Counted from the first letter of the stretch, positions 25,445 to 52,365 are shown. The stretch: 64,000 nt of DNA from Dehalococcoidia bacterium (GCA_030610855.1 JAUWQY010000002.1:24082-88081); one strand, 5' to 3'. Numbers and translations are program-made. Notes: generated by a model from the letters alone, not told the origin.

Positions 25445-26971
25445 ATGGCCAGAGCGGTGATTGTATCAGATATGCTACGTGGCTTTCTCGAGGAAGGTTA
25501 TCCTCTTTACTGCGGCATCCAGGCCAGGAGTATCATACCTAATGTCCAGAGACTGCTGAAGAGGGAGCTAGAACAGGGCTCGAAGGTGTTCTATTCCTGT
25601 GACCGCCATATACCGGACGACCCGGAATTCAGGATGTTCCCACCTCATTGTATCGAAGGTACTGAGGAAGCCGAACTCATACCCGAGCTCCTAGAATATC
25701 CCGGCGAGATGATACCGAAGAAGTCTTTTAGCGGCTTCTACAAGACTCCTTTAGACAGGAGACTGGAGGCAATCAGGCCCGAAACGATTGTTGTCTGCGG
25801 CGTAACCACCCATATCTGCGTTTTGCACGCAGTTATTGATGCCAGAAACAGGGGCTATGATATTGAAGTCCCCGCTGATTGCGTCGCCTCATTCGATAGA
25901 AAGGCTCACTTCTTCGCCCTGGATTATATGGAAAAGGTGCTTGGAGCCAGGCTTGTCAAGCCACCTGTTAAGGTGCCCCCGCCGCGTTTTGAGATTCTGG
26001 ATTCATGGTTGAACGGGGAGACGGCCGACATCTATTTCCCCCGCACGGTGGAAATACTCAAGAAAGAGGGGATTAACCCCGCAGTAACGATGGAGGTTTT
26101 TTCTCGCCAGGCCGGTATCTTGTGCGGCATAGAAGAAGTCAAAACTCTACTAGATAGAGTGCTTCCCGAGGATAATCGTGAAGTCTGGGCACTGGATCAA
26201 GGCGAGCCTTTCAACGGAATGGAAGTAGTTCTGCGCATAAGAGCCCCTTATCAAAGCTACGGAGCTTATGAGACAGCCTACTTGGGCATGCTCTCTCATT
26301 GCAGTGGCTGGGCTACTGCTGCTCGAGAATGCGTCGATGCTGCCCGGGGTATTCCTGTCATCAGCTTTGGAGCCCGTCATGTCCATCCCTCAGTGGTCGG
26401 CATTATGGAATACTCTGCCGTAGTCGGAGGCTGCACTGGCTGCGCCAGTACCGCCGGGGCAAGACTTGCTGGCATCCAACCCACAGGGACTATTCCCCAC
26501 GCCCTCATCATTATTATGGGCAACACTGCTAAGGCCACTCTTGCCTTTGACAAGCATATGCCTTCCGAAGTGCCACGCATTACTCTGGTAGATACCTTCG
26601 AGGACGAGGTCAGAGAAAGCGTAACTGTGGCCAAAGCGATGCAAGGAAAGTTACAGGGCGTAAGATTAGATACACCTTCAGAGAGAGGTCGAGTTACTGC
26701 CGACTTGGTCAAAGAGGTTAGAGCCTGGCTGGACCTCGAGGGATTTAAGGACGTGAAAATAGTTGTCAGCGGTGGACTGAACCCGGAACGCATCAGGTAT
26801 TTTATCGATGAAGGGGCACCTGTGGACATTCTCGCTGTTGGCAGCCATATCAGCGATGCCAAGCCCATTGACTTCACCGCTGACCTTCACGAAATAGAGG
26901 GCAAACCCATCGCCAAAAGAGGCAGAATGCCCGGCATCACTCCCAACCCCAGGCTAAAAAGCGTGATGTAA
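25445..26971 (+). CDS. fused nicotinamidase/isochorismatase-family hydrolase (N-terminal) and nicotinate phosphoribosyltransferase (C-terminal)
   Basis: 508 aa. The N-terminal ~180 aa carry cysteine-hydrolase/isochorismatase signatures (IVVCGVTTHICV, catalytic Cys context). The C-terminal ~330 aa match archaeal-type NAPRTase. No stop codon or frameshift between the two parts. Confidence 0.8.
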   Translation: MARAVIVSDMLRGFLEEGYPLYCGIQARSIIPNVQRLLKRELEQGSKVFYSCDRHIPDDPEFRMFPPHCIEGTEEAELIPELLEYPGEMIPKKSFSGFYKTPLDRRLEAIRPETIVVCGVTTHICVLHAVIDARNRGYDIEVPADCVASFDRKAHFFALDYMEKVLGARLVKPPVKVPPPRFEILDSWLNGETADIYFPRTVEILKKEGINPAVTMEVFSRQAGILCGIEEVKTLLDRVLPEDNREVWALDQGEPFNGMEVVLRIRAPYQSYGAYETAYLGMLSHCSGWATAARECVDAARGIPVISFGARHVHPSVVGIMEYSAVVGGCTGCASTAGARLAGIQPTGTIPHALIIIMGNTAKATLAFDKHMPSEVPRITLVDTFEDEVRESVTVAKAMQGKLQGVRLDTPSERGRVTADLVKEVRAWLDLEGFKDVKIVVSGGLNPERIRYFIDEGAPVDILAVGSHISDAKPIDFTADLHEIEGKPIAKRGRMPGITPNPRLKSVM

Positions 26972-27133
26972 ACAACGGCAGAAGAGCTTTATTACGCTTA
27001 TTCATATATAGTTAACTGCATAATCTCGTACAAGAATCCTCTCCGTTGACGAGCTTTGCTCCATAAGTACCACTTGCTCCAAAAGTAAGGCATCTGCTCC
27101 AAAAGTCCGTGAGTTGCCCAAAAGGTCTGCACC

Positions 27134-27583
27134 TCAAGTTCTATCACCCCAAAAATCCCTCCAATCCCATGGCTTGTATTGACTACGTTTCCTAGTTGCA
27201 CTGATGGCCAAGACTGAGAAAAGGATTGCGGCTACTATTGATACAATTGTCGCACTGATTGTCCAGCCAGTACGAGGTATGCTAATCATTGCTAATGCTA
27301 AGCCGGTTGTCATTAATGCAAAGCCCCATAAAACCAACATGAGAGTCTCAAATCTATCTCCCTTAGACCTTTTAGTATCTTGGTCGTGGTATTCGTCAAT
27401 CTTCTTAATAAGAGTGGCTAGCTGTTCATTATCCTCTTGTTTTGGATTCGCTTCATTTGGTGCCGTCTCGGTTTCTTGTCTTGAGTAATTTCTTTGGTTG
27501 CCAATGAACATGGATAATAGCTTTAGTAATCCAAAACTGATGACACCTAGAATTAGCATAGCTATTAATGCTAGAACAAACAT
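27134..27583 (-). CDS. small membrane protein (3 predicted TM helices), candidate effector of the island
   Basis: 149 aa; hydrophobic N-terminal helix, hydrophilic ~55 aa loop, two C-terminal TM helices; AAGGAG SD 8 nt before the ATG; preceded by the 33-nt repeat element. Confidence 0.5.
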   Translation of the reverse strand: MFVLALIAMLILGVISFGLLKLLSMFIGNQRNYSRQETETAPNEANPKQEDNEQLATLIKKIDEYHDQDTKRSKGDRFETLMLVLWGFALMTTGLALAMISIPRTGWTISATIVSIVAAILFSVLAISATRKRSQYKPWDWRDFWGDRT

Positions 27584-27611
27584 ATCTCGGTCTCCTTTCC
27601 TGTTTTTGGCC

Positions 27612-27644
27612 TTGTATCACAAGTGCCTTCTGTATCAAAAGTCA
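27612..27644. promoter_or_regulatory. 33-nt repeated element copy A (TTGTATCAcAAgTGCCTTCTGTATCAAAAGTCA) upstream of the membrane protein gene
   Basis: 31/33 identical to copy B at 28874-28906; contains an internal TGTATCA direct repeat. Confidence 0.55.
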
Positions 27645-27674
27645 TTTATCTGGCTTTTGCAAACCTTGATTGTT

Positions 27675-28424
27675 TCATTCATTGATAAGTCGAGGGATAC
27701 TTGGCGTTTCCTCATCTTTGGGCTTTTGTAGGCTCAAACAATAATTTAACAAGGCTGCTTTAGCACCTTCGATACTCTGTTTATGTTCTCCCAAGTCAAT
27801 CTCCGAAAGTTGTTTTGCTCTCAATTGCCCCTTGCTATCTGGCCCAAGCACAGCTAACTGAATAGGCCCCTTAACTCCACCAACATTCACGTCTATTGCA
27901 TGTTCTAGGGTCCATGTAGCCACAAATTCACCTCCGCTAAGAGGTGGAGGGCCAGTCTTCCAGAACACCTCCCGCATTAGAGCAAGAAACGAATCTGTAA
28001 CTTGCTGAGTTACACCAAGAGAAACATACCACAAATCCGTCTTAAGTTCCGGTTGGAAATCAGCCACTGCGAACTCGCAAAGGTGGAATTTCCCCTCTGC
28101 TGGGAAAGCTACTAAAGCACCATACCCTGCTTTCGGCGCAAATGTATAGGCAAAATCTTGTTGAGTAACCCTGCTTAGGTATTCTATTATTTCCATTGCG
28201 GTCCTATTGAATATCCCATCTTGCCATGATTTTTCAACTGTAGCTTCGAAACGTTGCCCAAGCCCGACTTGCCCAGTACCTGCAAGGATAATGCTATCCC
28301 CTATAATTTTTAACTTTTGGGTGGGTTGTTCGACTGTATGAATCTGGCCTGAGCCAAAAGTCGCTGAACTATCAGTGCCTAGAACGACACCATTCTGGCA
28401 GAGAATGCCGACTATTGCTGTCAT
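27675..28424 (-). CDS. proteasome beta/HslV-like Ntn-hydrolase family protein
   Basis: 249 aa. N-terminus MTAIVGILCQNGVVLGTDSSATFG aligns with proteasome beta / HslV mature N-termini: Thr1 after Met removal, Asp17 and a Lys near position 33 conserved. The start abuts the stop of the upstream Panacea-like gene. Confidence 0.6.
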   Translation of the reverse strand: MTAIVGILCQNGVVLGTDSSATFGSGQIHTVEQPTQKLKIIGDSIILAGTGQVGLGQRFEATVEKSWQDGIFNRTAMEIIEYLSRVTQQDFAYTFAPKAGYGALVAFPAEGKFHLCEFAVADFQPELKTDLWYVSLGVTQQVTDSFLALMREVFWKTGPPPLSGGEFVATWTLEHAIDVNVGGVKGPIQLAVLGPDSKGQLRAKQLSEIDLGEHKQSIEGAKAALLNYCLSLQKPKDEETPSIPRLINE

Positions 28425-28856
28425 TTATTCGCAGCCTTGAAATACACTATTAGCCTTCATTTCAGGGTAGGCTTTATAAATTGCCGACACTAATTGCTCA
28501 AAGGATAATACTCGTACAAACTCAGATACGGTTTTTATAAACTCTTGTGCCTTAGTATCTAGGCTGGTCAATAGCGTATCTCCTGCCTGCTGCCCCTTTT
28601 CTGTGAGCCTATAACTCGACCAAGTTTGCTCAGGGACAATTTCAACGTAACCATCGCCCGCTAACTCAAGGAGCACATCATATAAAGACACATCAAAAGG
28701 ACCATAATTGTATGGCTTGAAGTCATAGTGAGGGCCCCCCACTAACTTTGGTATTTCTCTGTCAATCAAGAAGAGGAGTTTTTGCACCTGCACCGGAGTA
28801 TGGCTTGAACCATTGGCGGGAGCAAATGCAGCCAAAATAGTTTCCCTTTTATTCAT
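28425..28856 (-). CDS. Panacea (DUF4065)-like domain protein
   Basis: About 143 aa from the ATG at 28856 (GGAGGT SD 7 nt upstream). The motif VQKLLFLIDRE ... YNYGPFDVSLYDVL resembles the Panacea/SocA-like antitoxin domain core (KLxKLLY ... GPx ... Y). The ORF-track GTG start at 28907 probably over-extends into the 33-nt repeat. Confidence 0.5.
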   Translation of the reverse strand: MNKRETILAAFAPANGSSHTPVQVQKLLFLIDREIPKLVGGPHYDFKPYNYGPFDVSLYDVLLELAGDGYVEIVPEQTWSSYRLTEKGQQAGDTLLTSLDTKAQEFIKTVSEFVRVLSFEQLVSAIYKAYPEMKANSVFQGCE

Positions 28857-28873
28857 TTCATTTACCTCCAGTT

Positions 28874-28906
28874 TTGTATCATAAATGCCTTCTGTATCAA
28901 AAGTCA
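28874..28906. promoter_or_regulatory. 33-nt repeated element copy B, between the S-like gene stop and the Panacea-like gene start
   Basis: TTGTATCAtAAaTGCCTTCTGTATCAAAAGTCA; 31/33 identical to copy A at 27612-27644. Confidence 0.55.
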
Positions 28907-28907
28907 C

Positions 28908-29906
28908 CTAGGCAAATACTTTTCTAATTTGATTCCAGTAAGTAGTGTTGTGTAAAAGAGATTTTATACTAGCTTCATCTAGTTTATTGTCATCGTTCAT
29001 TGGTAACCAAATCTTTGTCGTTGCTTCAAACTTGGTTTTATAACATTGGCGACCATAAGAATAACGCCATCTTTGCCGATTTAACGCAAACGCAATAAAA
29101 AATAAGGTCTCTCTCCCTAAAGGATATTTCGGAGAAAGTACAAGCACATTGTCAGTTGCGATAAAACTACTCAGTTGAACAAAGGCATCTCCCCCTACAG
29201 TGCTAATTGTTATTCTGCTTCTGGGATATATGTTAGCTTTATCAGGAATCTCAAAGAATCCTACAGTGCCGTTATCCCCACTAACACGGGATACCGTTCG
29301 ATGGACACCTGAAGCTAATGCCGATAACGAATGGAAGTCTCCCCGCTTGACATTGAACAGTTCACTAATGTCCATACTTTTCCATTGAAATATAGATAGG
29401 GCTAATGAACCCCTTTTACCCTTGGGCGGAAGCAATGAACGGTAATCCATCAAGAATTGTTCAGCTATAGCATCTTGGTCAATATCCTTTTCACCATTTT
29501 CTCTTTCCACAACTGGCATCTGTATTGTGATATTGGACAATTTATTACGGAAGCATTTTCTCCCGAAGTTATAACGCCATTTCATCGCATTAAGTGACGT
29601 TGCGATATAGAGTAAAGTGCTCTCTAACATAGGAATTCGTGGTTTTAGCACCGCAACATCATCCTTTGCACCAAACTCATACGGGTGGAATTTAGCTAAT
29701 AACGGTTGCCCATTATAAGCAACTGTAAGACTATGTTGATACCGTTTCTCCTGTGGAATGTCGAAATATCCAACCAACCCATTATCAGTATCCCCACAGG
29801 AAATTAAGGGTACATCTCCAAGTTCTAATTCCTTTGTAGCGTGAAAATCACCTGACTTAATGGTAAATAAGGCATCAACTGTCTTTGCCTCAAGTATCCA
29901 GTTCAT
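28908..29906 (-). CDS. Type IIB restriction-modification specificity (B/S-like) subunit with two target-recognition domains
   Basis: 332 aa; internal duplication. Each half has an F-x-[IV]-K-x-GDFH block. Each half also has an HsdS-like L-x-Y-I-A-x-S-L-N ... (R/K)-x-S/YGRxC(F/Y) ... I(Q/W)(M/L)P motif. Size matches the BcgI B subunit class; overlaps the upstream MTase gene by 4 nt. Confidence 0.65.
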   Translation of the reverse strand: MNWILEAKTVDALFTIKSGDFHATKELELGDVPLISCGDTDNGLVGYFDIPQEKRYQHSLTVAYNGQPLLAKFHPYEFGAKDDVAVLKPRIPMLESTLLYIATSLNAMKWRYNFGRKCFRNKLSNITIQMPVVERENGEKDIDQDAIAEQFLMDYRSLLPPKGKRGSLALSIFQWKSMDISELFNVKRGDFHSLSALASGVHRTVSRVSGDNGTVGFFEIPDKANIYPRSRITISTVGGDAFVQLSSFIATDNVLVLSPKYPLGRETLFFIAFALNRQRWRYSYGRQCYKTKFEATTKIWLPMNDDNKLDEASIKSLLHNTTYWNQIRKVFA

Positions 29907-31792
29907 TCTTCTTTTCCAAACCTTATTAAGAACGCTACTGCATCCCTTACCACTTGTTCAATACCCTGTTGAGTTTCCTCCATACTTGGTTGTGCTTGGT
30001 CTAAGTGATTTTCAGGAACCAACTCGAGGAGTTTATCAGAAAAGTCTATCGGACACGCCTTCTGCCTCATTTGAATATTCGGTACTGAGCATGATGGATT
30101 AGTAAGGAATGTTCTAATCAAATCACTTGAGTCGTACAGTTCGTTAGTCGTCCTATCAGTGGGAAGCCGTTTGCCCTTGCTTTTGAGTAATCCATCTGTG
30201 AGTGTCCTTACCCATAAGACGTTTTGCTCAATAGGATGGGGTATTCCCTTACGGATAAATACGCCTACTGTTGTAACACCAACTGGATAGAACATATCTA
30301 CAGGGAAAGTAACCACAGCACAAAGAGTGTGGTTAGCTAATAGTGAATCACGACGCCAGGTGAGGTATTGACCTGGTTTCACCATAGCAGGATATGGTAG
30401 TACTGAAAATAAGAGACCTCCGTGTTGTATTTGCCCTAGTGCTTGGTCTATGAATCTGAATTCTTTCTCAGCATCACGTTTCAAGGCGAAGGGGGGATTC
30501 ATCATTACCTTTGTCACGGGCGGGTTGCCGGAGAGCGTCTGCGCATATCTTGCTGTAGGAAGCCCACTCTCAGTGTGAGGAATGAGGAATTTCTTGAAAC
30601 AGTCTCCTTCTTGTATATTGTTCTTGCCATCCCCCCTGAAAATCATGTTTACTACTGCTAGTGCTGCAACCCCAGCTTCCTGCTCAATGCCAAATACCGA
30701 TAATCGTTTGAAGCGGGCTAATTGAGAAGGACTAGCTCGCCTTTTCACATAGTCAAACGCTGCAACTAAGAAACCGCCTGTCCCACACGTGGGGTCGTAT
30801 ATTGTATCCGTAATCTGTATATCCATGACATCAGCAACCCATCGTGTCAAGTGACGTGGCGTAAGAACTATGCCAAGGTCTTGCGCCCAGCTAGCATACT
30901 TTAGAAATACCTCGTAAAATGCACCTAACCAATCCGCTCCTGAGTTCATTGCTGAGCGGATATTTAGGTTATTAAGTTCCTGGAGAGTATCCACTAAGGC
31001 TCGACGCAATTTTGCATGGTTGTCAACTGTAGAGGGCAACCTAATTCTGATATAGTCATAGAATTCAGGCTTGCCTTGGTCTTTTAGAATACTGTCAACA
31101 CGAGAATTGATGTCACCGATTAGTATATCGGGACGGCGCTCGTCTATATTGGGGGGAGTACCGCTTAGCATGGATAGCAATAAGGCGGCCATAACACCTG
31201 CTCTCTGATGCGGGTTGACTGCGCCTAAATGAAGAATTTCGTTGATATGCTCAGCGCGGGAAATGAATAGGCCTTCATCTATTTCTGGCTCTGCGATGTC
31301 TGCAATCCCATTCTTTAACATAAGTTCAAGTTGAGACTGAGGCAATAATCCTGTTGCCTCAATCTCGTTCAAGGTGATTGGGATAAATGTACTACCATCG
31401 AAGAATTCACTCCGTACTAGGAAAGAATCAATCTCATTGCCAGCTACACCAGTAACGAACCTAGCATCATATCGATCGCTTTGGGCAAATCGCTTGGCAT
31501 AATCCTCTGCCTCTGAAAGTGCTCGCCGAAGCTCACTATGAGAACGCTTCGCCTCAATAATCCAAAGCACACGCTCAGTAACTTTCACTATATTCTCTGG
31601 TTTGTCTAGGTTAAGGCACTTCTTTATTTCAGGATTCGATAGGCACTCGTTTTGTGTCCACACTTGACCAGTATCACACCTTTCAGGGTTACGAACATCC
31701 CAACCAAGAAGACGCAGATTACGCTTAATAAATTCGTAGGCATGGACTTCACTATCTTTGGGTTTATGTGCCATCAATCTTTGACCTCCCAT
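29903..31792 (-). CDS. Type IIB (BcgI-like) restriction-modification A subunit: N-terminal PD-(D/E)xK nuclease plus gamma-class N6-adenine DNA methyltransferase
   Basis: 629 aa; AdoMet motif I DPTCGTGGFL and catalytic motif IV NPPF in gamma-class order; N-terminal D ... IIEAKR (PD-ExK-like) segment; size and partner gene match the BcgI A/B architecture. Confidence 0.7.
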   Translation of the reverse strand: MGGQRLMAHKPKDSEVHAYEFIKRNLRLLGWDVRNPERCDTGQVWTQNECLSNPEIKKCLNLDKPENIVKVTERVLWIIEAKRSHSELRRALSEAEDYAKRFAQSDRYDARFVTGVAGNEIDSFLVRSEFFDGSTFIPITLNEIEATGLLPQSQLELMLKNGIADIAEPEIDEGLFISRAEHINEILHLGAVNPHQRAGVMAALLLSMLSGTPPNIDERRPDILIGDINSRVDSILKDQGKPEFYDYIRIRLPSTVDNHAKLRRALVDTLQELNNLNIRSAMNSGADWLGAFYEVFLKYASWAQDLGIVLTPRHLTRWVADVMDIQITDTIYDPTCGTGGFLVAAFDYVKRRASPSQLARFKRLSVFGIEQEAGVAALAVVNMIFRGDGKNNIQEGDCFKKFLIPHTESGLPTARYAQTLSGNPPVTKVMMNPPFALKRDAEKEFRFIDQALGQIQHGGLLFSVLPYPAMVKPGQYLTWRRDSLLANHTLCAVVTFPVDMFYPVGVTTVGVFIRKGIPHPIEQNVLWVRTLTDGLLKSKGKRLPTDRTTNELYDSSDLIRTFLTNPSCSVPNIQMRQKACPIDFSDKLLELVPENHLDQAQPSMEETQQGIEQVVRDAVAFLIRFGKEE

Positions 31793-32034
31793 CCCTGACC
31801 AGCCTTATCATATTGCTTCTTCTTCGGTATTCGTTTCCGTTTGAGAAGCCCATCAAGTGATGCGAGAACTGACTGTAAATTAGCAGGAGACCTTTTGCCT
31901 TGATTCCAGGATTCGACTGTGCGTGTAGCTTGCCCTATCTCTCGAGCAATATTGGCAAGTGTCCAGCCTTTTTGTTGAAGCTCAAGAAGTTTGGCTTGTA
32001 CTTTGTCGTTATTCACTTGCTGGTATTCTACCAT
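31774..32034 (-). CDS. XRE-family helix-turn-helix regulator (C-protein-like controller of the RM operon)
   Basis: About 87 aa from the ATG at 32034; HTH GWTLANIAREIGQATRTVESWNQGKRSP; overlaps the MTase start by 19 nt. The ORF-track start at 32259 is likely an over-extension through AT-rich sequence. Confidence 0.6.
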   Translation of the reverse strand: MVEYQQVNNDKVQAKLLELQQKGWTLANIAREIGQATRTVESWNQGKRSPANLQSVLASLDGLLKRKRIPKKKQYDKAGQGWEVKD

Positions 32035-32138
32035 ACAATGTGTGTTATTATCAATAAGTATTAGGAGAATATTTTTGTGTTTTTTTGTAGAATTGGTAGC
32101 AAAAGGTATTGATGAAGTCATACATTGTGTGTTATTAT
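32032..32138. repeat. 20-nt direct repeat (CATACA[A/T]TGTGTGTTATTAT) x2, 87 nt apart, spanning the HTH gene start and its upstream region
   Basis: Copies at 32032-32051 and 32119-32138 with a single mismatch; each contains an in-frame ATG on the minus strand. Confidence 0.6.
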
Positions 32139-32776
32139 AAATACAGAACAGGGAATGAGCAGGAGAATTGAAATGGAATTTTGGAAAGAAAAAGGACCGG
32201 CAATAGCGGAATCTGACACAGTTAAGGAAAACAAGCTGGGATGGCAAGTTCCCTCCCAATCGGGTACAAAGCCCCCTTGACGGGAGAGGATTAAGGTAAG
32301 GGTGATATCCCCCTCCCTCTAACTCCCTCGCACCGGGGGAGGGAGAAATTATGAGGAGTTTTGCAGTTAACTATGATTAGCGATACATGCATTAGCTTCG
32401 CTGCTTTCGTGCTGTTCTCAATTCCTCTACTATCCTGGGCAATATCTCACCCGTCTGTCCCTGAAGAAGGCAGTCTGATACACCTTCGTGGGTGAGTGGT
32501 GTAGGCTCTGCGTGTCTCTTGAAGCCCAAGCATTTCCTGCCAGTACGCCCCCCCCCTGGGGTCTTTCAGGAAAAGGTCGTGTCTTTGATAAGCCCTGGCC
32601 TCTGCCTCCTTGTTTGTGGTCCACACCCCTTTTGGTCCCCCCGACAAGTCGGGGTATGCCTGATTCAGTCGACATACCGGCCCCGCTCAGTGCAATGGCA
32701 TACCTGCTTTCCACCAAATCCTCTGCTCCCTGCCTGACCAGGCTTTCCGTTACTCACCCCACCATCACGGTCATCT

Positions 32777-50959: not shown

Positions 50960-52365
50960 GCCTCCTGCGCACCAACCTGGTAGTTCTTAAGCTCTTCAAC
51001 ATAGAGAGCCAGAAACATTCGAGCTTTCTCTTCAGAGAAGTGGGCAGGCCTATAAGTGAGGGAGAAATTCAGATTCTTATTGTACGTACCAGCGGCGATG
51101 CTCAGTCCCATTGGACTCACTACCGGTGCGGAGCCGGTCACATTGACTATTCTAGCATTGCCTATGGTGCTCACGGCCGGTTCCGCAGAACCTGGTTTGG
51201 GCCAGATAAAGCCCAAATTGGTAATAAGAATAGTGTCGACATATGTCCGTGTAACAATCAAGAACCAGCACATTCCTCTCATAACCACCAGAGGAAAGCG
51301 AGAGCAGAAGTAGAAGAAATAGACCAGGGAGAAGGCTATTCTGTTCTTGGTCGCATTTATGGTATCTCCTCTTACTTTTCTCAGTAGCTCCGCCGCATCC
51401 GTCCTATCTTTGGGCGTAGTGGGCAAGGAAAACCAGGATGCCTGGTTGGAAACAACATAGCGAAAGCCCTTCGGACTTATGTTCACCGGAGCCATTACGC
51501 GGATCCTCTTGCTGACCTTCCCATGCATGCTATTCCATTTCTCCACCATTCTGTAACAGGCCGCCAGGAGAAGATCGTTTAGCGTAACCCCAGCCAACTT
51601 TGCTTTGAGCTGGATTTGGGTCAGCTCCCGGGGGTTTATGATTTCGAAACAGAAATGGAGTTCCCTAGAGTGCCCGGATCTATCATGGAAAACCCTTGTC
51701 GGGGGAGGGAGCGCGCATAGGACAAAACGATGGAAGAGACTGAGAATCACCTTCCTGTAGTAGTGTTGCACCTTTGATCTCTGGCTGTGGGCGAATTCCA
51801 GCAGTTCGTCTCCCTTACGATTTACGCGGATATCGCCAGCATTTCCCGGGGCCGACGCTTTGGCCCCACCCCCCACAGAAAGCTGGTTGTTATAACTCTC
51901 GATAACCTTCCTTACGAAGAGAAGGGCACGGAGTCCATCTGCTGATGAGTGATGAAAAGTGAAAACCAACAGGTATTCCGTGTCGTTCTTCCTTAACAGG
52001 AGAACCCTCACCGGGAACTCCTTTCTGATATTCAAGGGTCGGTTCATCCACGACGAAAGATAGGTTTCATAGTCGGTGTCTTCCAGTTCACCCTGGTCTG
52101 CCATAGTGAGGACTCCCGTGCCGGTGCCCTCCTGTATCTGGCGGAAAGGCCTGAGGTTTCTCCTGCGCAGAATCGTTCTCATCACAGGATGAGCCCCCTG
52201 CGCCGAGACAATTGCCTGATTCAGCCTGGCGGCATCTACTTCCCCCTGAACGCTTAGAATCGTATGAATAAGCATGGGCTCGTTCATGCCATCAAGAGCC
52301 AACAGGCATTTATCAACGCAGTTCAGCGGGATGAAACCGGGGGAACTCTCCATCTCTCTTCGCAT
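50956..52365 (-). CDS. condensation-domain / WS-DGAT-like acyltransferase (HHxxxDG motif)
   Basis: 469 aa; FTFHHSSADG catalytic motif typical of NRPS condensation, WS/DGAT and PapA5-type acyltransferases. Confidence 0.65.
   Translation of the reverse strand: MRREMESSPGFIPLNCVDKCLLALDGMNEPMLIHTILSVQGEVDAARLNQAIVSAQGAHPVMRTILRRRNLRPFRQIQEGTGTGVLTMADQGELEDTDYETYLSSWMNRPLNIRKEFPVRVLLLRKNDTEYLLVFTFHHSSADGLRALLFVRKVIESYNNQLSVGGGAKASAPGNAGDIRVNRKGDELLEFAHSQRSKVQHYYRKVILSLFHRFVLCALPPPTRVFHDRSGHSRELHFCFEIINPRELTQIQLKAKLAGVTLNDLLLAACYRMVEKWNSMHGKVSKRIRVMAPVNISPKGFRYVVSNQASWFSLPTTPKDRTDAAELLRKVRGDTINATKNRIAFSLVYFFYFCSRFPLVVMRGMCWFLIVTRTYVDTILITNLGFIWPKPGSAEPAVSTIGNARIVNVTGSAPVVSPMGLSIAAGTYNKNLNFSLTYRPAHFSEEKARMFLALYVEELKNYQVGAQEA

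What the first reader, a model, noticed from the sequence alone, without database searches (positions are those of the whole stretch)
26972..32300. Low-GC island: C-protein-like HTH plus BcgI-like Type IIB RM (A+B subunits) plus accessory module, inserted between pncA-pncB and a GC-rich noncoding stretch
Seen in sequence:
- The segment is conspicuously AT-rich relative to its 52-56% GC flanks.
- It carries a 629 aa protein with a gamma-class MTase (DPTCGTGGFL ... NPPF) and an N-terminal D ... IIEAKR nuclease-like region, followed by a 332 aa protein made of two duplicated HsdS-like TRD halves.
- The sizes (629/332) and architecture match the two-subunit Type IIB (BcgI-class) organisation rather than Type I, and no HsdR is present.
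- An XRE-HTH gene overlaps the A-subunit start, like a controller protein.

The island lacks integrase or transposase genes, so the insertion mechanism is unclear.
Basis: partly seen in the sequence, partly recalled or inferred. Interest (0 to 1): 0.6.

Follow-up and report, generated by a model that had tools for sequence, protein, structure and literature searches.

The report
Crippled transposon carrying BcgI-like restriction system
The low-GC island is a 5.2-kb IS5-like transposon that has lost its transposase and sits in a hairpin loop of an uncultured Dehalococcoidia genome; it carries an ordinary BcgI-type restriction-modification enzyme, and the more interesting parts are the transposon itself and a captured gene pair that couples an antitoxin-like protein to a proteasome-type protease.

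Summary
Window 26990-32379 has GC 0.427 against 0.522 elsewhere, and none of its genes occurs in any of 80 related genomes.

The restriction-modification (RM) reading holds on every test I could run. The A protein has a conserved PE...EAK nuclease motif, a helical connector and a gamma-class methyltransferase, and its model aligns end to end with BsaXI. The S protein is an internal duplication of two TRD halves. No HsdR gene lies in the window.

The statement that the island has no transposase is wrong. It is a transposon, 27051-32276, with a 5-bp target duplication (TTGAC), inserted in the loop of a 136-bp hairpin element. Codons 1-31 of an IS5-like SWIM+DDE transposase survive at 32173-32265. 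Intact relatives show the full layout: transposase, divergent promoters that each hold a palindromic operator, a small HTH gene, RM cargo, and a terminal array of 12-mers.

So the HTH is the transposon's regulator. It behaves like a C protein but is not a homologue of one.

The accessory module is captured cargo: a conserved pair of a Panacea-like protein and a proteasome-beta-like Thr protease that also occurs on its own elsewhere, plus a membrane protein. Each cassette ends in a 12-mer array.

The RM system is a new member of a known kind. The transposon family and the protease pair appear undescribed.

The parts
27008..27045 (.). Left arm of a ~136-bp hairpin (MITE/REP-like) element that was the insertion target. 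It starts with ATAGTTAACTGCA, the inverted partner of 32362-32374, and ends with the stem arm AATCCTCTCCG.
   Evidence: The inverted repeat was found (I5). The reconstructed element folds at -30.8 kcal/mol, z = -5.8. L113 holds an uninterrupted relative. The element is absent from L001.
27046..27050 (+). Target-site duplication copy 1 (TTGAC).
   Evidence: Reading outward from the two termini gives GTCAA and TTGAC. Six other independent insertions show the same relation with other 5-mers.
27051..27106 (-). Cargo-side transposon terminus (array R3): three 12-mers (ACTTTTGGAGCA, ACTTTTGGAGCA, ACTTATGGAGCA) followed by AAGCTC.
   Evidence: It is 85% identical to the terminal array of L081. The same architecture is seen in about 85 copies.
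27134..27583 (-). Cargo cassette 3: a 149-aa predicted membrane protein of unknown function.
   Evidence: ORF. No significant family hit. Homologues of 53-63% identity sit directly before the terminal array in L136 and L159.
27613..27642 (-). Internal array R2: two 12-mers (ACTTTTGATACA, ACTTGTGATACA) that close the Panacea/proteasome cassette.
   Evidence: The same array follows the homologous pair in L083 and L163.
27675..28424 (-). Proteasome-beta-like N-terminal-nucleophile Thr protease, 249 aa, with no propeptide.
28425..28856 (-). Panacea-like (SocA/DUF4065-related) partner protein, 143 aa, abutting the protease gene.
   Evidence: PADLOC PDC-M19A 4.7e-13 and DarG 1.4e-6. Pfam SocA_Panacea is the top hit but below threshold in 6 of 7 diverged partners. 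Some homologues carry a precomputed PF13274 hit. The pairing is conserved in every context with enough upstream sequence.
28875..28904 (-). Internal array R1: two 12-mers (ACTTTTGATACA, ATTTATGATACA), starting 3 nt after the S stop codon.
   Evidence: It is conserved after the S gene in L081, where a different gene follows.
28908..29906 (-). S (specificity, B-type) subunit, 332 aa, made of two duplicated TRD halves.
   Evidence: Pfam Methylase_S 1e-9. PADLOC Type II specificity subunit 4.3e-14, matched in two stretches. The halves are 34% identical, E = 1e-26.
29903..31774 (-). A (RM) subunit, 623 aa from Met7 (the ORF extends to 31792). Residue numbers below follow the 629-aa ORF: N-terminal PD-(D/E)XK nuclease (E66, E80, K82), helical connector, gamma-class N6-adenine methyltransferase (DPTCGTGGF 333-341, NPPF 432-435).
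31774..32016 (-). 80-aa HTH regulator. Its start codon lies 8 nt after the -10 box (near-leaderless). Its stop overlaps the A start (TGATG).
   Evidence: Homologues lie upstream of the array in 23 loci.
32025..32054 (-). Promoter of the HTH/cargo operon (TTGATA-18-TAGAAT), with the palindromic operator ACACACATTGTATG (32032-32045) in its spacer.
   Evidence: Best promoter-like site in the region. The layout is conserved in at least 10 loci, and the operator sequence changes from locus to locus together with its distal copy.
32109..32138 (+). Divergent transposase promoter (TTGATG-18-TATTAT), with a second operator copy ACACACAATGTATG (32119-32132, read on the minus strand).
   Evidence: (D3).
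32173..32265 (+). Stump of the transposase gene: codons 1-31 (MEFWKEKGPAIAESDTVKENKLGWQVPSQSG). The reading frame runs on to a stop at 32280.
   Evidence: It is 87% identical to the N-terminus of the intact 429-aa SWIM+DDE transposase of L129, E = 9e-12.
32265..32276 (+). Remnant of the transposase-side terminus (TACAAAGCCCCC). The 12-mer units that intact copies have here are deleted.
32277..32281 (+). Target-site duplication copy 2 (TTGAC).
32282..32374 (.). Right arm of the hairpin target element: GGGAGAGGATTAAGGTAAGGGTGA, a GC-rich inner hairpin, and the outer repeat TGCAGTTAACTAT.

Best explanation
The island is a non-autonomous, now probably immobile derivative of a cargo-carrying IS5-like DNA transposon.

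Shown by sequence comparison:
- Intact relatives are built in this order: terminus with two 12-mer units; a 415-429 aa SWIM-zinc-finger + DDE transposase gene; two divergent sigma-70-like promoters, each with the same palindromic operator in its spacer; a roughly 80-aa HTH gene on a near-leaderless transcript; cargo; and a terminus with two or three 12-mer units ending in AAGCCC.
- These elements insert with a 5-bp target duplication, often in the loop of a C-rich/G-rich hairpin.
- In this window the element (27051-32276) sits in the loop of a 136-bp hairpin element between the convergent pncA-pncB gene and a sirtuin pseudogene. It is flanked by TTGAC on both sides.
- A later deletion removed the transposase from codon 32 through the transposase-side 12-mers.

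Cargo 1 is a two-subunit Type IIB/IIG (BcgI-class) restriction-modification enzyme. Its architecture is shown. The following is inferred by analogy with BcgI and BsaXI: an A2S complex in which S reads a bipartite site, and each A subunit either methylates an adenine or, on unmodified DNA, cuts at a fixed distance using its N-terminal nuclease.

Inferred from operator placement and covariation: the HTH represses or tunes both promoters. This couples expression of the transposase and of the cargo, and acts like a controller protein when the element enters a new host.

Cargo 2 is a conserved pair of a Panacea-like protein and a proteasome-beta-like protease. Cargo 3 is a membrane protein. Both are independent cassettes, each ending in its own 12-mer array. 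I infer that they were added by recombination at arrays or by use of alternative ends.

Inferred only from fold, catalytic residues, tight pairing and genomic neighbourhoods: the pair is a toxin-antitoxin-like or abortive-infection module. The Thr protease would be the effector, and the Panacea-like protein its inhibitor or substrate adaptor.
For: Foreign origin and boundaries.

RM architecture:
- N6_Mtase and Methylase_S hits, with the best PADLOC hits being REase_MTase_IIG and the Type II specificity subunit.
- P65, E66, E80 and K82 are invariant in 50 aligned homologues and at least 98% conserved in 120, within an otherwise variable domain.
- The model (pLDDT 85) has an alpha-beta-beta-beta-alpha-beta N-terminal domain.
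- Only BsaXI RM, BpuSI and DrdV align over more than 600 columns. Type I M subunits cover only the connector and methyltransferase.
- Many homologues are about 800 aa with a fused Methylase_S domain.
- The S protein is an internal duplication.
- There is no HsdR-like gene in the 64 kb.
- Family definitions are taken from PMC3592470 and PMC11997821.

Transposon:
- The array pattern has 4 matches in the window, all inside the island, with 0 expected, and 101 matching stretches in metagenomes.
- HTH homologues lie upstream on the same strand in 23 loci.
- The divergent transposase is present in 19 loci and full length in 12, with one more (L108) cut only by the contig end. It matches DDE_Tnp_1 at 1e-17, SWIM at 3e-5 and IS5_2 at 3.7e-33.
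- The termini are inverted copies of each other.
- Matching 5-bp duplications with five different sequences occur in seven independent insertions, including the window.
- L113 holds an uninterrupted target relative, and the reconstructed target folds strongly.
- The first cargo gene is a DNA methyltransferase protein in 10 of 10 other loci. Three of these have a recognisable nuclease domain and two have a fused S domain. Copies with no cargo also exist.
- Promoters and operators.

Modularity:
- The RM block is 92% identical to L081 and ends at array R1. A different gene follows there, and then the same terminal array.
- The Panacea/protease pair is 90% identical to L083 and is followed by the same array there.

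Protease pair: with contexts.
Against: - No enzymology or methylome data exist. Cutting on both sides of the site, the A2S stoichiometry and the recognition sequence are all inferred.
- The PADLOC and PDB sequence alignments to Type IIG/IIB enzymes cover only the methyltransferase part. The nuclease domain is linked to them by motif, predicted fold and position, not by significant sequence similarity.
- The transposase scores below NCBIfam's IS5 cutoff (115 against 140 bits), so IS5-family membership is approximate.
- Four or so elements (L160, L164, L119/L132, and L110 unclear) do not show matching 5-bp flanks.
- How cassettes are added is not shown.
- Whether the HTH actually binds the palindromic boxes is untested.
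- The Panacea assignment is below threshold in Pfam.
- Nothing demonstrates that the protease pair is toxic or protects against phage.
Confidence: 0.8

Rival explanations
1. The A and S genes are the M and S subunits of a Type I system, or an orphan methyltransferase, with its HsdR encoded elsewhere in the genome or lost.
For: Database sources name the homologues 'type I restriction enzyme M protein' or 'N-6 DNA methylase'. The best PDB sequence hits are Type I M subunits. TIGR00497 hsdM gives a weak hit. Only 64 kb of the genome can be inspected.
Against: The protein has about 165 extra N-terminal residues with a conserved PE...EAK motif and a PD-(D/E)XK-type predicted fold, which HsdM proteins lack. 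Full-length structural alignment is obtained only with the RM fusion enzymes BsaXI, BpuSI and DrdV. Many homologues are single-chain R-M-S fusions. The whole system moves as a 3-kb transposon cargo without any HsdR, both here and in L081. No HsdR lies in the window.
Confidence: 0.05
2. The A+S enzyme is a Type IIG enzyme that cuts on one side only, or one whose nuclease is inactive, rather than a true Type IIB enzyme that excises its site.
For: Sequence cannot establish cutting on both sides. The nuclease domain has no significant sequence match to BcgI or BsaXI models, because the alignments stop at the methyltransferase. About 800-aa relatives with a single fused TRD exist.
Against: A separate S subunit with two TRDs, together with an RM subunit, is the arrangement that gives the symmetric (RM)2S assembly and double cutting in BcgI and BsaXI (PMC3592470, PMC11997821). 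The catalytic residues are invariant.
Confidence: 0.12
3. The island is the remnant of an integrase-mobilised element such as a prophage or integrative island. On this view the 12-mer arrays are arm-type integrase sites, and ATA-GTTAAC-TGCA and TGCA-GTTAAC-TAT are hybrid attL and attR cores.
For: In phage contig L096 the same array lies between a cargo gene and the 3' end of a tyrosine integrase gene, next to a cI-like repressor. The two island edges carry a 13-bp inverted repeat that can be read as hybrid cores.
Against: Apart from L174, a 2.1-kb fragment whose integrase and cargo matches are 100% identical to L096, L096 is the only one of about 85 array loci with an adjacent integrase. Its 'cargo' is a Tsp45I restriction-enzyme fragment lying beside a transposase C-terminal stump, so it is a decayed copy of the transposon. 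Nineteen loci carry the DDE transposase in a fixed orientation. Matching 5-bp duplications lie directly outside the AAGCCC termini. The 13-bp repeat belongs to the small hairpin target element, which has an uninterrupted relative in L113.
Confidence: 0.03
4. The Panacea-like/proteasome-like pair is not a toxin-antitoxin or defence module. It would instead be a small housekeeping or regulatory proteolytic system (protease plus adaptor or transcription factor) that happens to be mobile.
For: No PADLOC model matches the protease. The partner also gives weak winged-helix and PadR-like hits. Known bacterial proteasome homologues (HslV, Anbu, BPH) are not toxins. In some contexts, such as L090, the neighbours are ordinary genes.
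Against: The pair is inserted sporadically next to IS elements, ParE/HTH and MazE-type genes, Dcm-Vsr, an EcoRI-type methylase and GmrSD/HNH nucleases. It is carried as transposon cargo beside an RM system here. The partner's best matches are Panacea, DarG and a PADLOC candidate system.
Confidence: 0.3

Closest known systems
BcgI (archetypal two-subunit Type IIB RM enzyme, A2B)
   Same: It has two genes in the same order, and the best-matching PADLOC models (637 and 341 positions) are close in length to these proteins (623/629 and 332 aa). The A subunit has an N-terminal PD...EXK nuclease motif (Glu53 in BcgI; E66, E80 and K82 here) followed by a gamma-class N6-adenine methyltransferase. The B/S subunit has two TRDs. 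There is no motor subunit.
   Different: There is no significant sequence similarity in the nuclease domain. The recognition site and cutting pattern are unknown. This system is preceded by a co-transcribed HTH gene and is carried as transposon cargo.
BsaXI, a Type IIB (RM)2S enzyme with cryo-EM structures (8w0p, 8w2p)
   Same: The predicted A structure aligns with BsaXI RM over 638 columns (E = 7e-17), including the N-terminal endonuclease, the helical connector and the methyltransferase. The catalytic cluster is of the same type: an acidic residue, E/D, then ExK.
   Different: BsaXI RM is 916 aa and has 'knob' and C-terminal 'paddle' elements that have no counterpart in this 623-aa protein. 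Sequence identity is only about 16%.
Transposon-like RM units of Furuta et al. 2010 (PMC2853133), especially the Neisseria gonorrhoeae unit with a Type IIG RM gene, an S homologue and a degenerate transposase gene, flanked by 26-bp inverted repeats and an 8-bp duplication
   Same: A BcgI-style RM+S pair lies inside inverted repeats with a short target duplication and a decayed transposase. A non-autonomous element mobilised in trans was already proposed there.
   Different: Here the transposase family is different (IS5-like with a SWIM finger). The duplication is 5 bp, the termini are multi-unit 12-mer arrays, the element has a dedicated HTH regulator with twin operators, and it inserts in hairpin loops. 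A whole family with varied RM cargo is seen.
IS5-family insertion sequences and passenger-carrying ('transporter') IS elements
   Same: The transposase has a DDE_Tnp_1 catalytic domain with the Y-x2-R-x3-E-x6-K signature. The element has terminal inverted repeats and a short target duplication. The best curated match is the IS5 family.
   Different: The score is below the curated IS5 cutoff. The transposase has an N-terminal SWIM zinc finger. The ends carry subterminal arrays of 12-mers spaced 18-20 bp apart. A regulator gene and 0-5 kb of cargo lie inside the ends.
IS elements that target REP or palindromic sequences (Tobes and Pareja 2006, PMC1525189; IS1397 and ISKpn1 from my own knowledge)
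   Same: Insertion is into the loop of an intergenic palindromic hairpin.
   Different: Those elements belong to the IS3 and IS110/IS1111 families and carry no cargo. Target preference here is inferred from a handful of insertions.
Controller (C) proteins of Type II RM systems
   Same: It is a small HTH protein encoded immediately upstream of the restriction gene and translationally coupled to it. Palindromic operators lie in its own promoter, and the transcript is near-leaderless. That several C genes are leaderless is from my own knowledge.
   Different: It has no detectable homology to solved C proteins, and its best Pfam hit is a Terminase_5-type HTH. It is conserved with the transposon backbone, even in copies without cargo. 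A second operator sits in the transposase promoter.
PanA/PanT (Panacea-domain) toxin-antitoxin systems, and SocA-SocB
   Same: It is a small Panacea-like protein in a tight bicistron with a variable partner, scattered on mobile DNA. SocA is an adaptor for a self-compartmentalising protease, ClpXP.
   Different: Here the partner is itself a proteasome-type protease, which is not mentioned in the main text of either Panacea paper I searched. The Panacea match is below threshold.
Bacterial proteasome homologues (HslV, Anbu, BPH) and archaeal 20S beta subunits
   Different: It is only 12-21% identical to these proteins. It has a C-terminal helix and a conserved P-x-x-P-(R/K) tail. It is always paired with a Panacea-like gene rather than an AAA+ ATPase, and its distribution is sporadic and mobile.

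Membership tests
Type IIB / two-subunit Type IIG RM (BcgI class) | One polypeptide carries both an N-terminal PD-(D/E)XK endonuclease and a methyltransferase. | tested here: met
   P65-E66...E80-A-K82 is invariant in 50 homologues and at least 98% conserved in 120. The N-terminal domain is predicted as alpha-beta-beta-beta-alpha-beta. The model aligns over its full length with BsaXI RM, BpuSI and DrdV.
Type IIB / two-subunit Type IIG RM (BcgI class) | A gamma-class N6-adenine methyltransferase, with motif I before motif IV (NPPF/Y). | tested here: met
   DPTCGTGGF lies at 333-341 and NPPF at 432-435, and both are invariant. Pfam N6_Mtase scores 4e-25.
Type IIB / two-subunit Type IIG RM (BcgI class) | A separate specificity subunit with two target-recognition domains. 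| tested here: met
   The protein is 332 aa, and its halves are 34% identical at E = 1e-26. It matches the PADLOC Type II specificity subunit in two stretches.
Type IIB / two-subunit Type IIG RM (BcgI class) | No HsdR-type motor subunit. | tested here: met
   None is in the island, in the L081 copy or anywhere in the 64-kb window. The rest of the genome cannot be inspected.
Type IIB / two-subunit Type IIG RM (BcgI class) | Significant sequence similarity to BcgI-family enzymes across the nuclease domain. | tested here: inconclusive
   The best PADLOC hit is REase_MTase_IIG (1e-37, a 637-position model), but the alignment covers only residues 282-546. The sequence hit to BsaXI is weak (2.5e-5) and confined to the methyltransferase. 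REBASE was not available.
Type IIB / two-subunit Type IIG RM (BcgI class) | [quoted passage not shown] | not testable with these tools
   This needs biochemistry or methylome data.
Type I RM | An HsdR helicase-nuclease subunit, together with an HsdM that lacks a nuclease domain. | tested here: not met
   No HsdR was found. The methyltransferase protein carries its own nuclease domain.
RM controller (C) proteins | A small HTH gene directly upstream of, and co-expressed with, the restriction gene, with palindromic operators in its own promoter. | tested here: met
   The HTH stop and the A start overlap as TGATG. The operator lies in the promoter spacer and has a second copy 87 bp upstream. The boxes differ between loci but match within each locus.
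RM controller (C) proteins | Homology to known C proteins. | tested here: not met
   No solved C protein appears among the PDB hits even at E up to 5; only weak HipB matches are seen. The Pfam hit is Terminase_5.
RM controller (C) proteins | The regulator is tied to the RM system rather than to its vehicle. | tested here: not met
   Homologues occur in transposon copies with no cargo (L112, L126, L164), and a second operator lies in the transposase promoter.
IS5-family transposon | A DDE transposase of the DDE_Tnp_1 type that reaches the curated IS5 score. | tested here: inconclusive
   Intact relatives match DDE_Tnp_1 at 1e-17 and SWIM at 3e-5. IS5_2 scores 115 bits against a cutoff of 140. 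The window itself keeps only codons 1-31.
IS5-family transposon | Terminal inverted repeats and a short target-site duplication. | tested here: met
   The termini are inverted copies of each other. A 5-bp duplication is seen in seven independent insertions, including the window, where it is TTGAC.
Panacea-domain (PanA-type) antitoxin systems | A Panacea (PF13274) domain in the small protein. | tested here: inconclusive
   It is the top Pfam hit over the whole profile in 6 of 7 partners, but at 16-21 bits against a cutoff of 25.7. PADLOC PDC-M19A scores 4.7e-13 and DarG 1.4e-6. About a dozen of 120 homologues carry a precomputed PF13274 hit.
Panacea-domain (PanA-type) antitoxin systems | A conserved bicistron in which the partner is toxic and is neutralised. 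| not testable with these tools
   The gene pairing is conserved down to 50% identity. Toxicity and neutralisation need experiments.
Proteasome (T1) family of Ntn Thr peptidases | The proteasome subunit fold with N-terminal Thr, Asp17 and Lys33 equivalents. | tested here: met
Proteasome (T1) family of Ntn Thr peptidases | Ring assembly and peptidase activity. | not testable with these tools
   No multimer prediction or assay was available.

The most novel reading that the evidence does not exclude
The gene pair of a Panacea-like protein and a proteasome-beta-like protease (28425-28856 and 27675-28424) may represent a widespread, undescribed toxin-antitoxin-type or anti-phage module. At least 500 protease homologues and 1,644 partner homologues were found. 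On this reading the effector is a catalytically competent, propeptide-free proteasome-type Thr protease. The Panacea-like partner would act as its inhibitor or substrate adaptor, much as SocA does for ClpXP.

Here the pair has been captured as a cassette by a previously undescribed family of IS5-like transposons. These transposons ferry Type IIG/IIB RM genes into hairpin loops under a shared HTH repressor.
Probability: 0.4. Interest if true: 0.7.

Novelty: new variant of a known kind. Interest (0 to 1): 0.5.

Why it matters
The RM enzyme is another BcgI-class system and is useful mainly as a possible new specificity. Three things are of wider interest.

1. That answer extends to a family of more than 100 metagenomic copies. 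The family is an IS5-like transposon whose usual cargo is a Type IIG/IIB RM gene. The cargo and the transposase are placed under one repressor, and the element is targeted to hairpin loops. This offers a defined, testable vehicle for the horizontal spread of RM systems in Chloroflexota and other uncultured lineages.

2. The internal 12-mer arrays show how further defence cassettes can be stacked onto such a vehicle.

3. One stacked cassette pairs an antitoxin-type domain with a proteasome-type protease. I found this combination neither in the open-access literature I could search nor in PADLOC. If it is a defence or toxin-antitoxin system, it would add a new effector class.

Tried and rejected
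- tRNA, tmRNA and Rfam scans of the whole window, looking for an integration target or a non-coding RNA, found nothing.
- I first read the 33-nt direct repeats as att-like sites, and the 12-mers as integrase arm sites, because of the integrase next to an array in phage contig L096. I rejected this once the metagenome survey showed the DDE transposase association, and once the L096 cargo proved to be a Tsp45I fragment lying beside a transposase stump.
- I considered the 13-bp repeat ATAGTTAACTGCA as the transposon end, with TTAA, TA or AT target duplications. I rejected this because the motif is not found at other copies' ends. It belongs to the small hairpin target element.
- I took a degenerate 'R0' unit upstream of the HTH to be another array. 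It is in fact the -35 region of the transposase promoter.
- My first attempt to find target duplications beyond GGGAGAGGA failed. It was resolved by placing the terminus at AAGCCC.
- The GC-rich hairpin motif looked like a possible host repeat with a second copy at 51701. That second match is chance.
- Searches of solved structures with S, the Panacea-like protein and the HTH gave nothing significant.
- Literature searches for a Panacea or DUF4065 pairing with a proteasome, and for proteasome homologues in defence, found nothing relevant.
- Searches were malformed and returned only errors. One search failed on a file path.

Full report
1. THE OBSERVATION

The segment is conspicuously AT-rich. 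GC is 0.37-0.47 in 500-bp windows from about 27000 to 32400, against 0.50-0.56 on both sides. Over 26990-32379 GC is 0.427, against 0.522 for the rest of the window. Third-codon-position GC is 0.34-0.40 in island genes and 0.55-0.58 in neighbouring genes. No other 5.4-kb stretch of the window is as low.

All island genes are on the minus strand:
- a small HTH gene;
- a 629-aa ORF with DPTCGTGGFL and NPPF;
- a 332-aa ORF;
- a 160-aa ORF, really 143 aa;
- a 249-aa ORF;
- a 149-aa ORF.

The host is an uncultured Dehalococcoidia bacterium. I found 80 related loci through the upstream pncA-pncB fusion protein (63-94% identity). None encodes any of the six island proteins. The closest relative, L001, has the same gene order on both sides. 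Homology ends at window 26989 and resumes at 32380, and L001 has about 30 bp in between.

2. THE RESTRICTION-MODIFICATION GENES

Family hits. The A protein matches Pfam N6_Mtase (4e-25) over residues 286-534. Its best PADLOC hit is a Type IIG restriction enzyme-methyltransferase model of 637 positions (1e-37). The S protein matches Methylase_S, and its best PADLOC hit is a Type II specificity subunit model of 341 positions.

Nuclease domain. In 120 homologues of 61-100% identity, the N-terminal 165 residues are the most variable part. Even so, P65, E66, W77, E80 and K82 are at least 98% conserved, and they are invariant in a 50-sequence alignment. The AlphaFold model (pLDDT 85) gives this region the alpha-beta-beta-beta-alpha-beta order expected of a PD-(D/E)XK nuclease. 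E66 sits at the start of the second strand and E80-A-K82 lies in the third. A helical connector and the methyltransferase follow.

Structural relatives. Against solved structures, Type I M subunits align only with the connector and methyltransferase. BsaXI RM (Type IIB), BpuSI and DrdV align over more than 600 columns.

Other evidence. Many homologues are about 800 aa with a fused Methylase_S domain, so they are single-chain R-M-S enzymes. The two halves of S are 34% identical, E = 1e-26. The island, the near-identical copy in L081 and the rest of the window contain no HsdR-like gene. The other large ORFs are a carboxylase, IF-2, PNPase and a Lon-like protease.

Family definitions. In BcgI, Glu53 belongs to a PD...EXK motif and the enzyme is A2B (PMC3592470). 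BsaXI is (RM)2S, with an N-terminal PD-(D/E)xK domain, a helical connector, a methyltransferase, and an S subunit built as TRD1-CR1-TRD2-CR2 (PMC11997821). Every defining feature that sequence can address is met. Cutting on both sides, stoichiometry and the recognition site cannot be tested here. Sequence similarity to BcgI and BsaXI is significant only in the methyltransferase part.

3. HOW THE ISLAND GOT THERE

The first clue was a set of direct repeats at gene-block boundaries. They are arrays of 12-mers (ACTTTTGATACA or ACTTTTGGAGCA) spaced 18-20 bp apart, all on the minus strand. Array R1 lies just after S (28875-28904). R2 lies after the 249-aa gene (27613-27642). R3, with three units, lies at the island's left end (27057-27106).

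A copy of HTH-A-S that is 92% identical at the DNA level (the A protein is 95% identical) sits in an unrelated locus, L081. There the homology stops at R1, a different 164-aa gene follows, and then comes the same R3-type array. The 143-aa + 249-aa pair recurs at 90% identity in L083, again followed by the array.

A consensus of the array has 4 matches in the window, all in the island, with 0 expected. It has 101 matching stretches in the metagenome collection.

After orienting these loci on the array:
- 23 have a homologue of the island's HTH upstream on the same strand, from 40 bp to 3.7 kb away.
- 19 have, further upstream and always on the opposite strand, a homologue of a 415-429 aa protein. 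This protein has a SWIM zinc finger and a DDE_Tnp_1 domain with the Y-x2-R-x3-E-x6-K signature.
- That protein matches Pfam DDE_Tnp_1 at 1e-17 and SWIM at 3e-5. NCBIfam IS5_2 scores 3.7e-33, below its curated cutoff.

The window keeps only codons 1-31 of this transposase (32173-32265, plus strand). The stump is 87% identical to the intact protein, E = 9e-12.

Immediately past the transposase stop, intact copies have an inverted copy of the last 12-mer plus AAGCCC. The 5 nt just outside the two termini are reverse complements of each other when each end is read outward, so they form a direct 5-bp duplication. This holds in seven independent insertions with five different sequences:

| Locus | Two ends, each read outward |
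|---|---|
| L112 = L181 | TTTAC / GTAAA |
| L120 | GTCAT / ATGAC |
| L123 | ATCGA / TCGAT |
| L129 | TTGAT / ATCAA |
| L136 | ATCAA / TTGAT |
| L147 | GTCAA / TTGAC |
| window | TTGAC / GTCAA |

A chance match has probability of about 1/1024 per element. A few copies (L160, L164, L119/L132) do not match, which is expected if ends have been exchanged.

In the window the transposon is 27051-32276, and TTGAC lies at 27046-27050 and 32277-32281. The sequences outside the duplication are the two arms of a hairpin, CCTCTCCG and GGGAGAGG. This hairpin lies within a 136-bp element that has its own outer inverted repeat (ATAGTTAACTGCA at 27008 and TGCAGTTAACTAT at 32362). L113 contains an uninterrupted relative of this element. 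The reconstructed element folds at -30.8 kcal/mol, z = -5.8, and the insertion point is in the loop of a 10-bp stem. L001 lacks this small element.

The deletion that removed the transposase also removed the transposase-side 12-mers, leaving only TACAAAGCCCCC. The copy is therefore probably no longer mobilisable, which is an inference.

4. THE HTH

The apparent ATG start at 32034 is part of a promoter. TTGATA-18-TAGAAT (32054..32025) is the best promoter-like site in the region. In all loci the start codon lies 8 nt after the -10 box. The protein therefore starts at GTG 32016 (80 aa) on a near-leaderless transcript. Its stop overlaps the A start as TGATG.

The promoter spacer holds a palindromic box, ACACACATTGTATG. 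A second copy lies 87 bp upstream (ACACACAATGTATG), in the spacer of a divergent promoter, TTGATG-18-TATTAT, that drives the transposase. Across at least 10 loci the box sequence changes (for example CATAC-TAA-GTATG, or GCACAC-GCC-GTGTGC), but the two copies within a locus stay alike. This argues for specific recognition by the adjacent HTH.

The protein's only significant family hit is a Terminase_5-type HTH (2.7e-5). No solved C protein is detected even at E up to 5. Homologues also occur in transposon copies with no cargo at all (L112, L126, L164). It therefore acts like a controller protein but belongs to the transposon.

In 10 of 10 other loci examined, the first gene behind the HTH is a large DNA methyltransferase protein. 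All ten hit a methyltransferase family (N6_Mtase, Eco57I or N6_N4_Mtase). Three have a recognisable nuclease domain (HSDR_N_2 or RE_AlwI), and two have a fused Methylase_S domain. RM genes are thus the usual cargo of this family.

5. THE ACCESSORY GENES

The 249-aa protein is a proteasome-type N-terminal-nucleophile hydrolase:
- Pfam Proteasome scores 1.5e-7.
- M1-T2, D18 and K37 are invariant in 53 homologues of 49-92% identity.
- The model has pLDDT 89.
- Foldseek gives a TM-score (normalised to the target) of up to 0.83 against Thermoplasma beta.
- The family profile aligns Thr2 with Thr1 of mature archaeal beta subunits.

With no propeptide, removal of Met1 would expose the nucleophile, as in HslV.

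The 143-aa protein upstream gives PADLOC PDC-M19A 4.7e-13 and DarG 1.4e-6. Pfam SocA_Panacea is its top hit over the whole profile, as it is in six of seven diverged partners, but always below the cutoff. Among 1,644 homologues, some carry a precomputed PF13274 hit or the name 'phage-associated protein'.

The two genes abut or overlap in every context with enough upstream sequence, down to 50% identity. They occur on their own next to IS elements, ParE/HTH and MazE genes, Dcm-Vsr, an EcoRI-type methylase and GmrSD/HNH genes. Distant pairs lack the 12-mer arrays. The pair is therefore an independent module that this transposon lineage captured.

PADLOC has no model for the protease. I found no paper linking Panacea/DUF4065 to a proteasome-type partner. 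One Panacea paper notes that SocA works as an adaptor for ClpXP.

My reading is inference only: a toxin-antitoxin-like or abortive-infection module with the protease as effector.

The 149-aa protein is a predicted membrane protein with no family. Homologues sit just before the terminal array in L136 and L159.

6. COMPARISON WITH WHAT IS KNOWN, AND VERDICT

Transposon-like RM units were described by Furuta et al. 2010. One of them has a Type IIG RM gene, an S homologue and a decayed transposase gene between inverted repeats (PMC2853133). IS elements that target palindromic REP sequences are also known (PMC1525189).

The RM enzyme is a new member of the BcgI class. The vehicle is a new variant of a known kind, and I could not find it described. 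Its distinguishing features are an IS5-like transposase with a SWIM finger, subterminal 12-mer arrays that also serve as cassette junctions, a dedicated twin-operator HTH, and insertion in hairpin loops. The protease pair is the most novel element but has the least support for function.

Interest is moderate overall. The original finding is largely correct and largely ordinary, but it leads to a concrete mechanism for RM mobility and to a candidate new module.

Noticed in passing
window 32392-32776 (minus strand): This is a sirtuin (CobB-like) pseudogene. The N-terminus AIALSGAGMSTESGIP is followed by a frameshift, and about 490 bp are missing relative to L001 (junction at 32504/32510). The C-terminal end and stop codon are kept at about 32392. 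The gene is also frameshifted in L001, so its decay predates the insertion or is independent of it.
   Followed up: partly
window 27008-27050 plus 32282-32374: A 136-bp element with a 13-bp outer inverted repeat (ATAGTTAACTGCA / TGCAGTTAACTAT) and nested hairpins lies between two convergent genes. It is absent from the closest relative and has a relative in L113. It may be a MITE/REP-like repeat, a bidirectional terminator, or both. Its copy number in the genome is unknown.
   Followed up: partly
L081 9300-9660 and 13800-14572: The 95%-identical RM element in L081 lies between a truncated 5' copy of a prepilin peptidase (Peptidase_A24) gene and a complete but diverged copy of the same gene. 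The element's transposase side is cut off at the -35 box of the transposase promoter. How this duplication arose is unexplained.
   Followed up: partly
L153, around position 1968 of the array-oriented sequence (reverse complement of the locus as fetched): Here the last 12-mer plus AAGCCCC is followed 9 bp later by its perfect reverse complement (ACTTATGATACAAAGCCCC-tctcctcaa-AGGGGCTTTGTATCATAAGT). Two termini therefore face each other. This could be a minimal two-ended remnant or an abutted-end junction of the kind seen in transposon circles.
   Followed up: no
L096 11563-12313 (phage contig): A temperate-phage contig carries a decayed copy of the transposon between its structural genes and its integrase. 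The copy consists of a transposase C-terminal stump, a Tsp45I restriction-enzyme fragment and a three-unit array. These elements therefore also ride on phages.
   Followed up: partly
window 27675-27710 (C-terminus of the proteasome-like protein) and alignment A2: The family has a long C-terminal helix followed by a conserved P-x-x-P-(R/K) tail (P241 nearly invariant, P244 invariant). This is reminiscent of the docking tails that proteasome regulators use. Its role is unknown.
   Followed up: no
L177, upstream of 3719 (array-oriented sequence): This is an independent case of the same kind of decay. The transposase is reduced to an N-terminal stump of about 37 residues, while the HTH, the RM cargo and the array are retained. 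Loss of the transposase with retention of cargo appears to be recurrent.
   Followed up: no
window 25445-26971: The gene upstream of the island is a single 508-aa fusion of an isochorismatase (PncA-like) domain with nicotinate phosphoribosyltransferase-type domains. It is conserved as a fusion across all 80 Dehalococcoidia relatives, and in many of them a sirtuin gene is convergent with it.
   Followed up: partly
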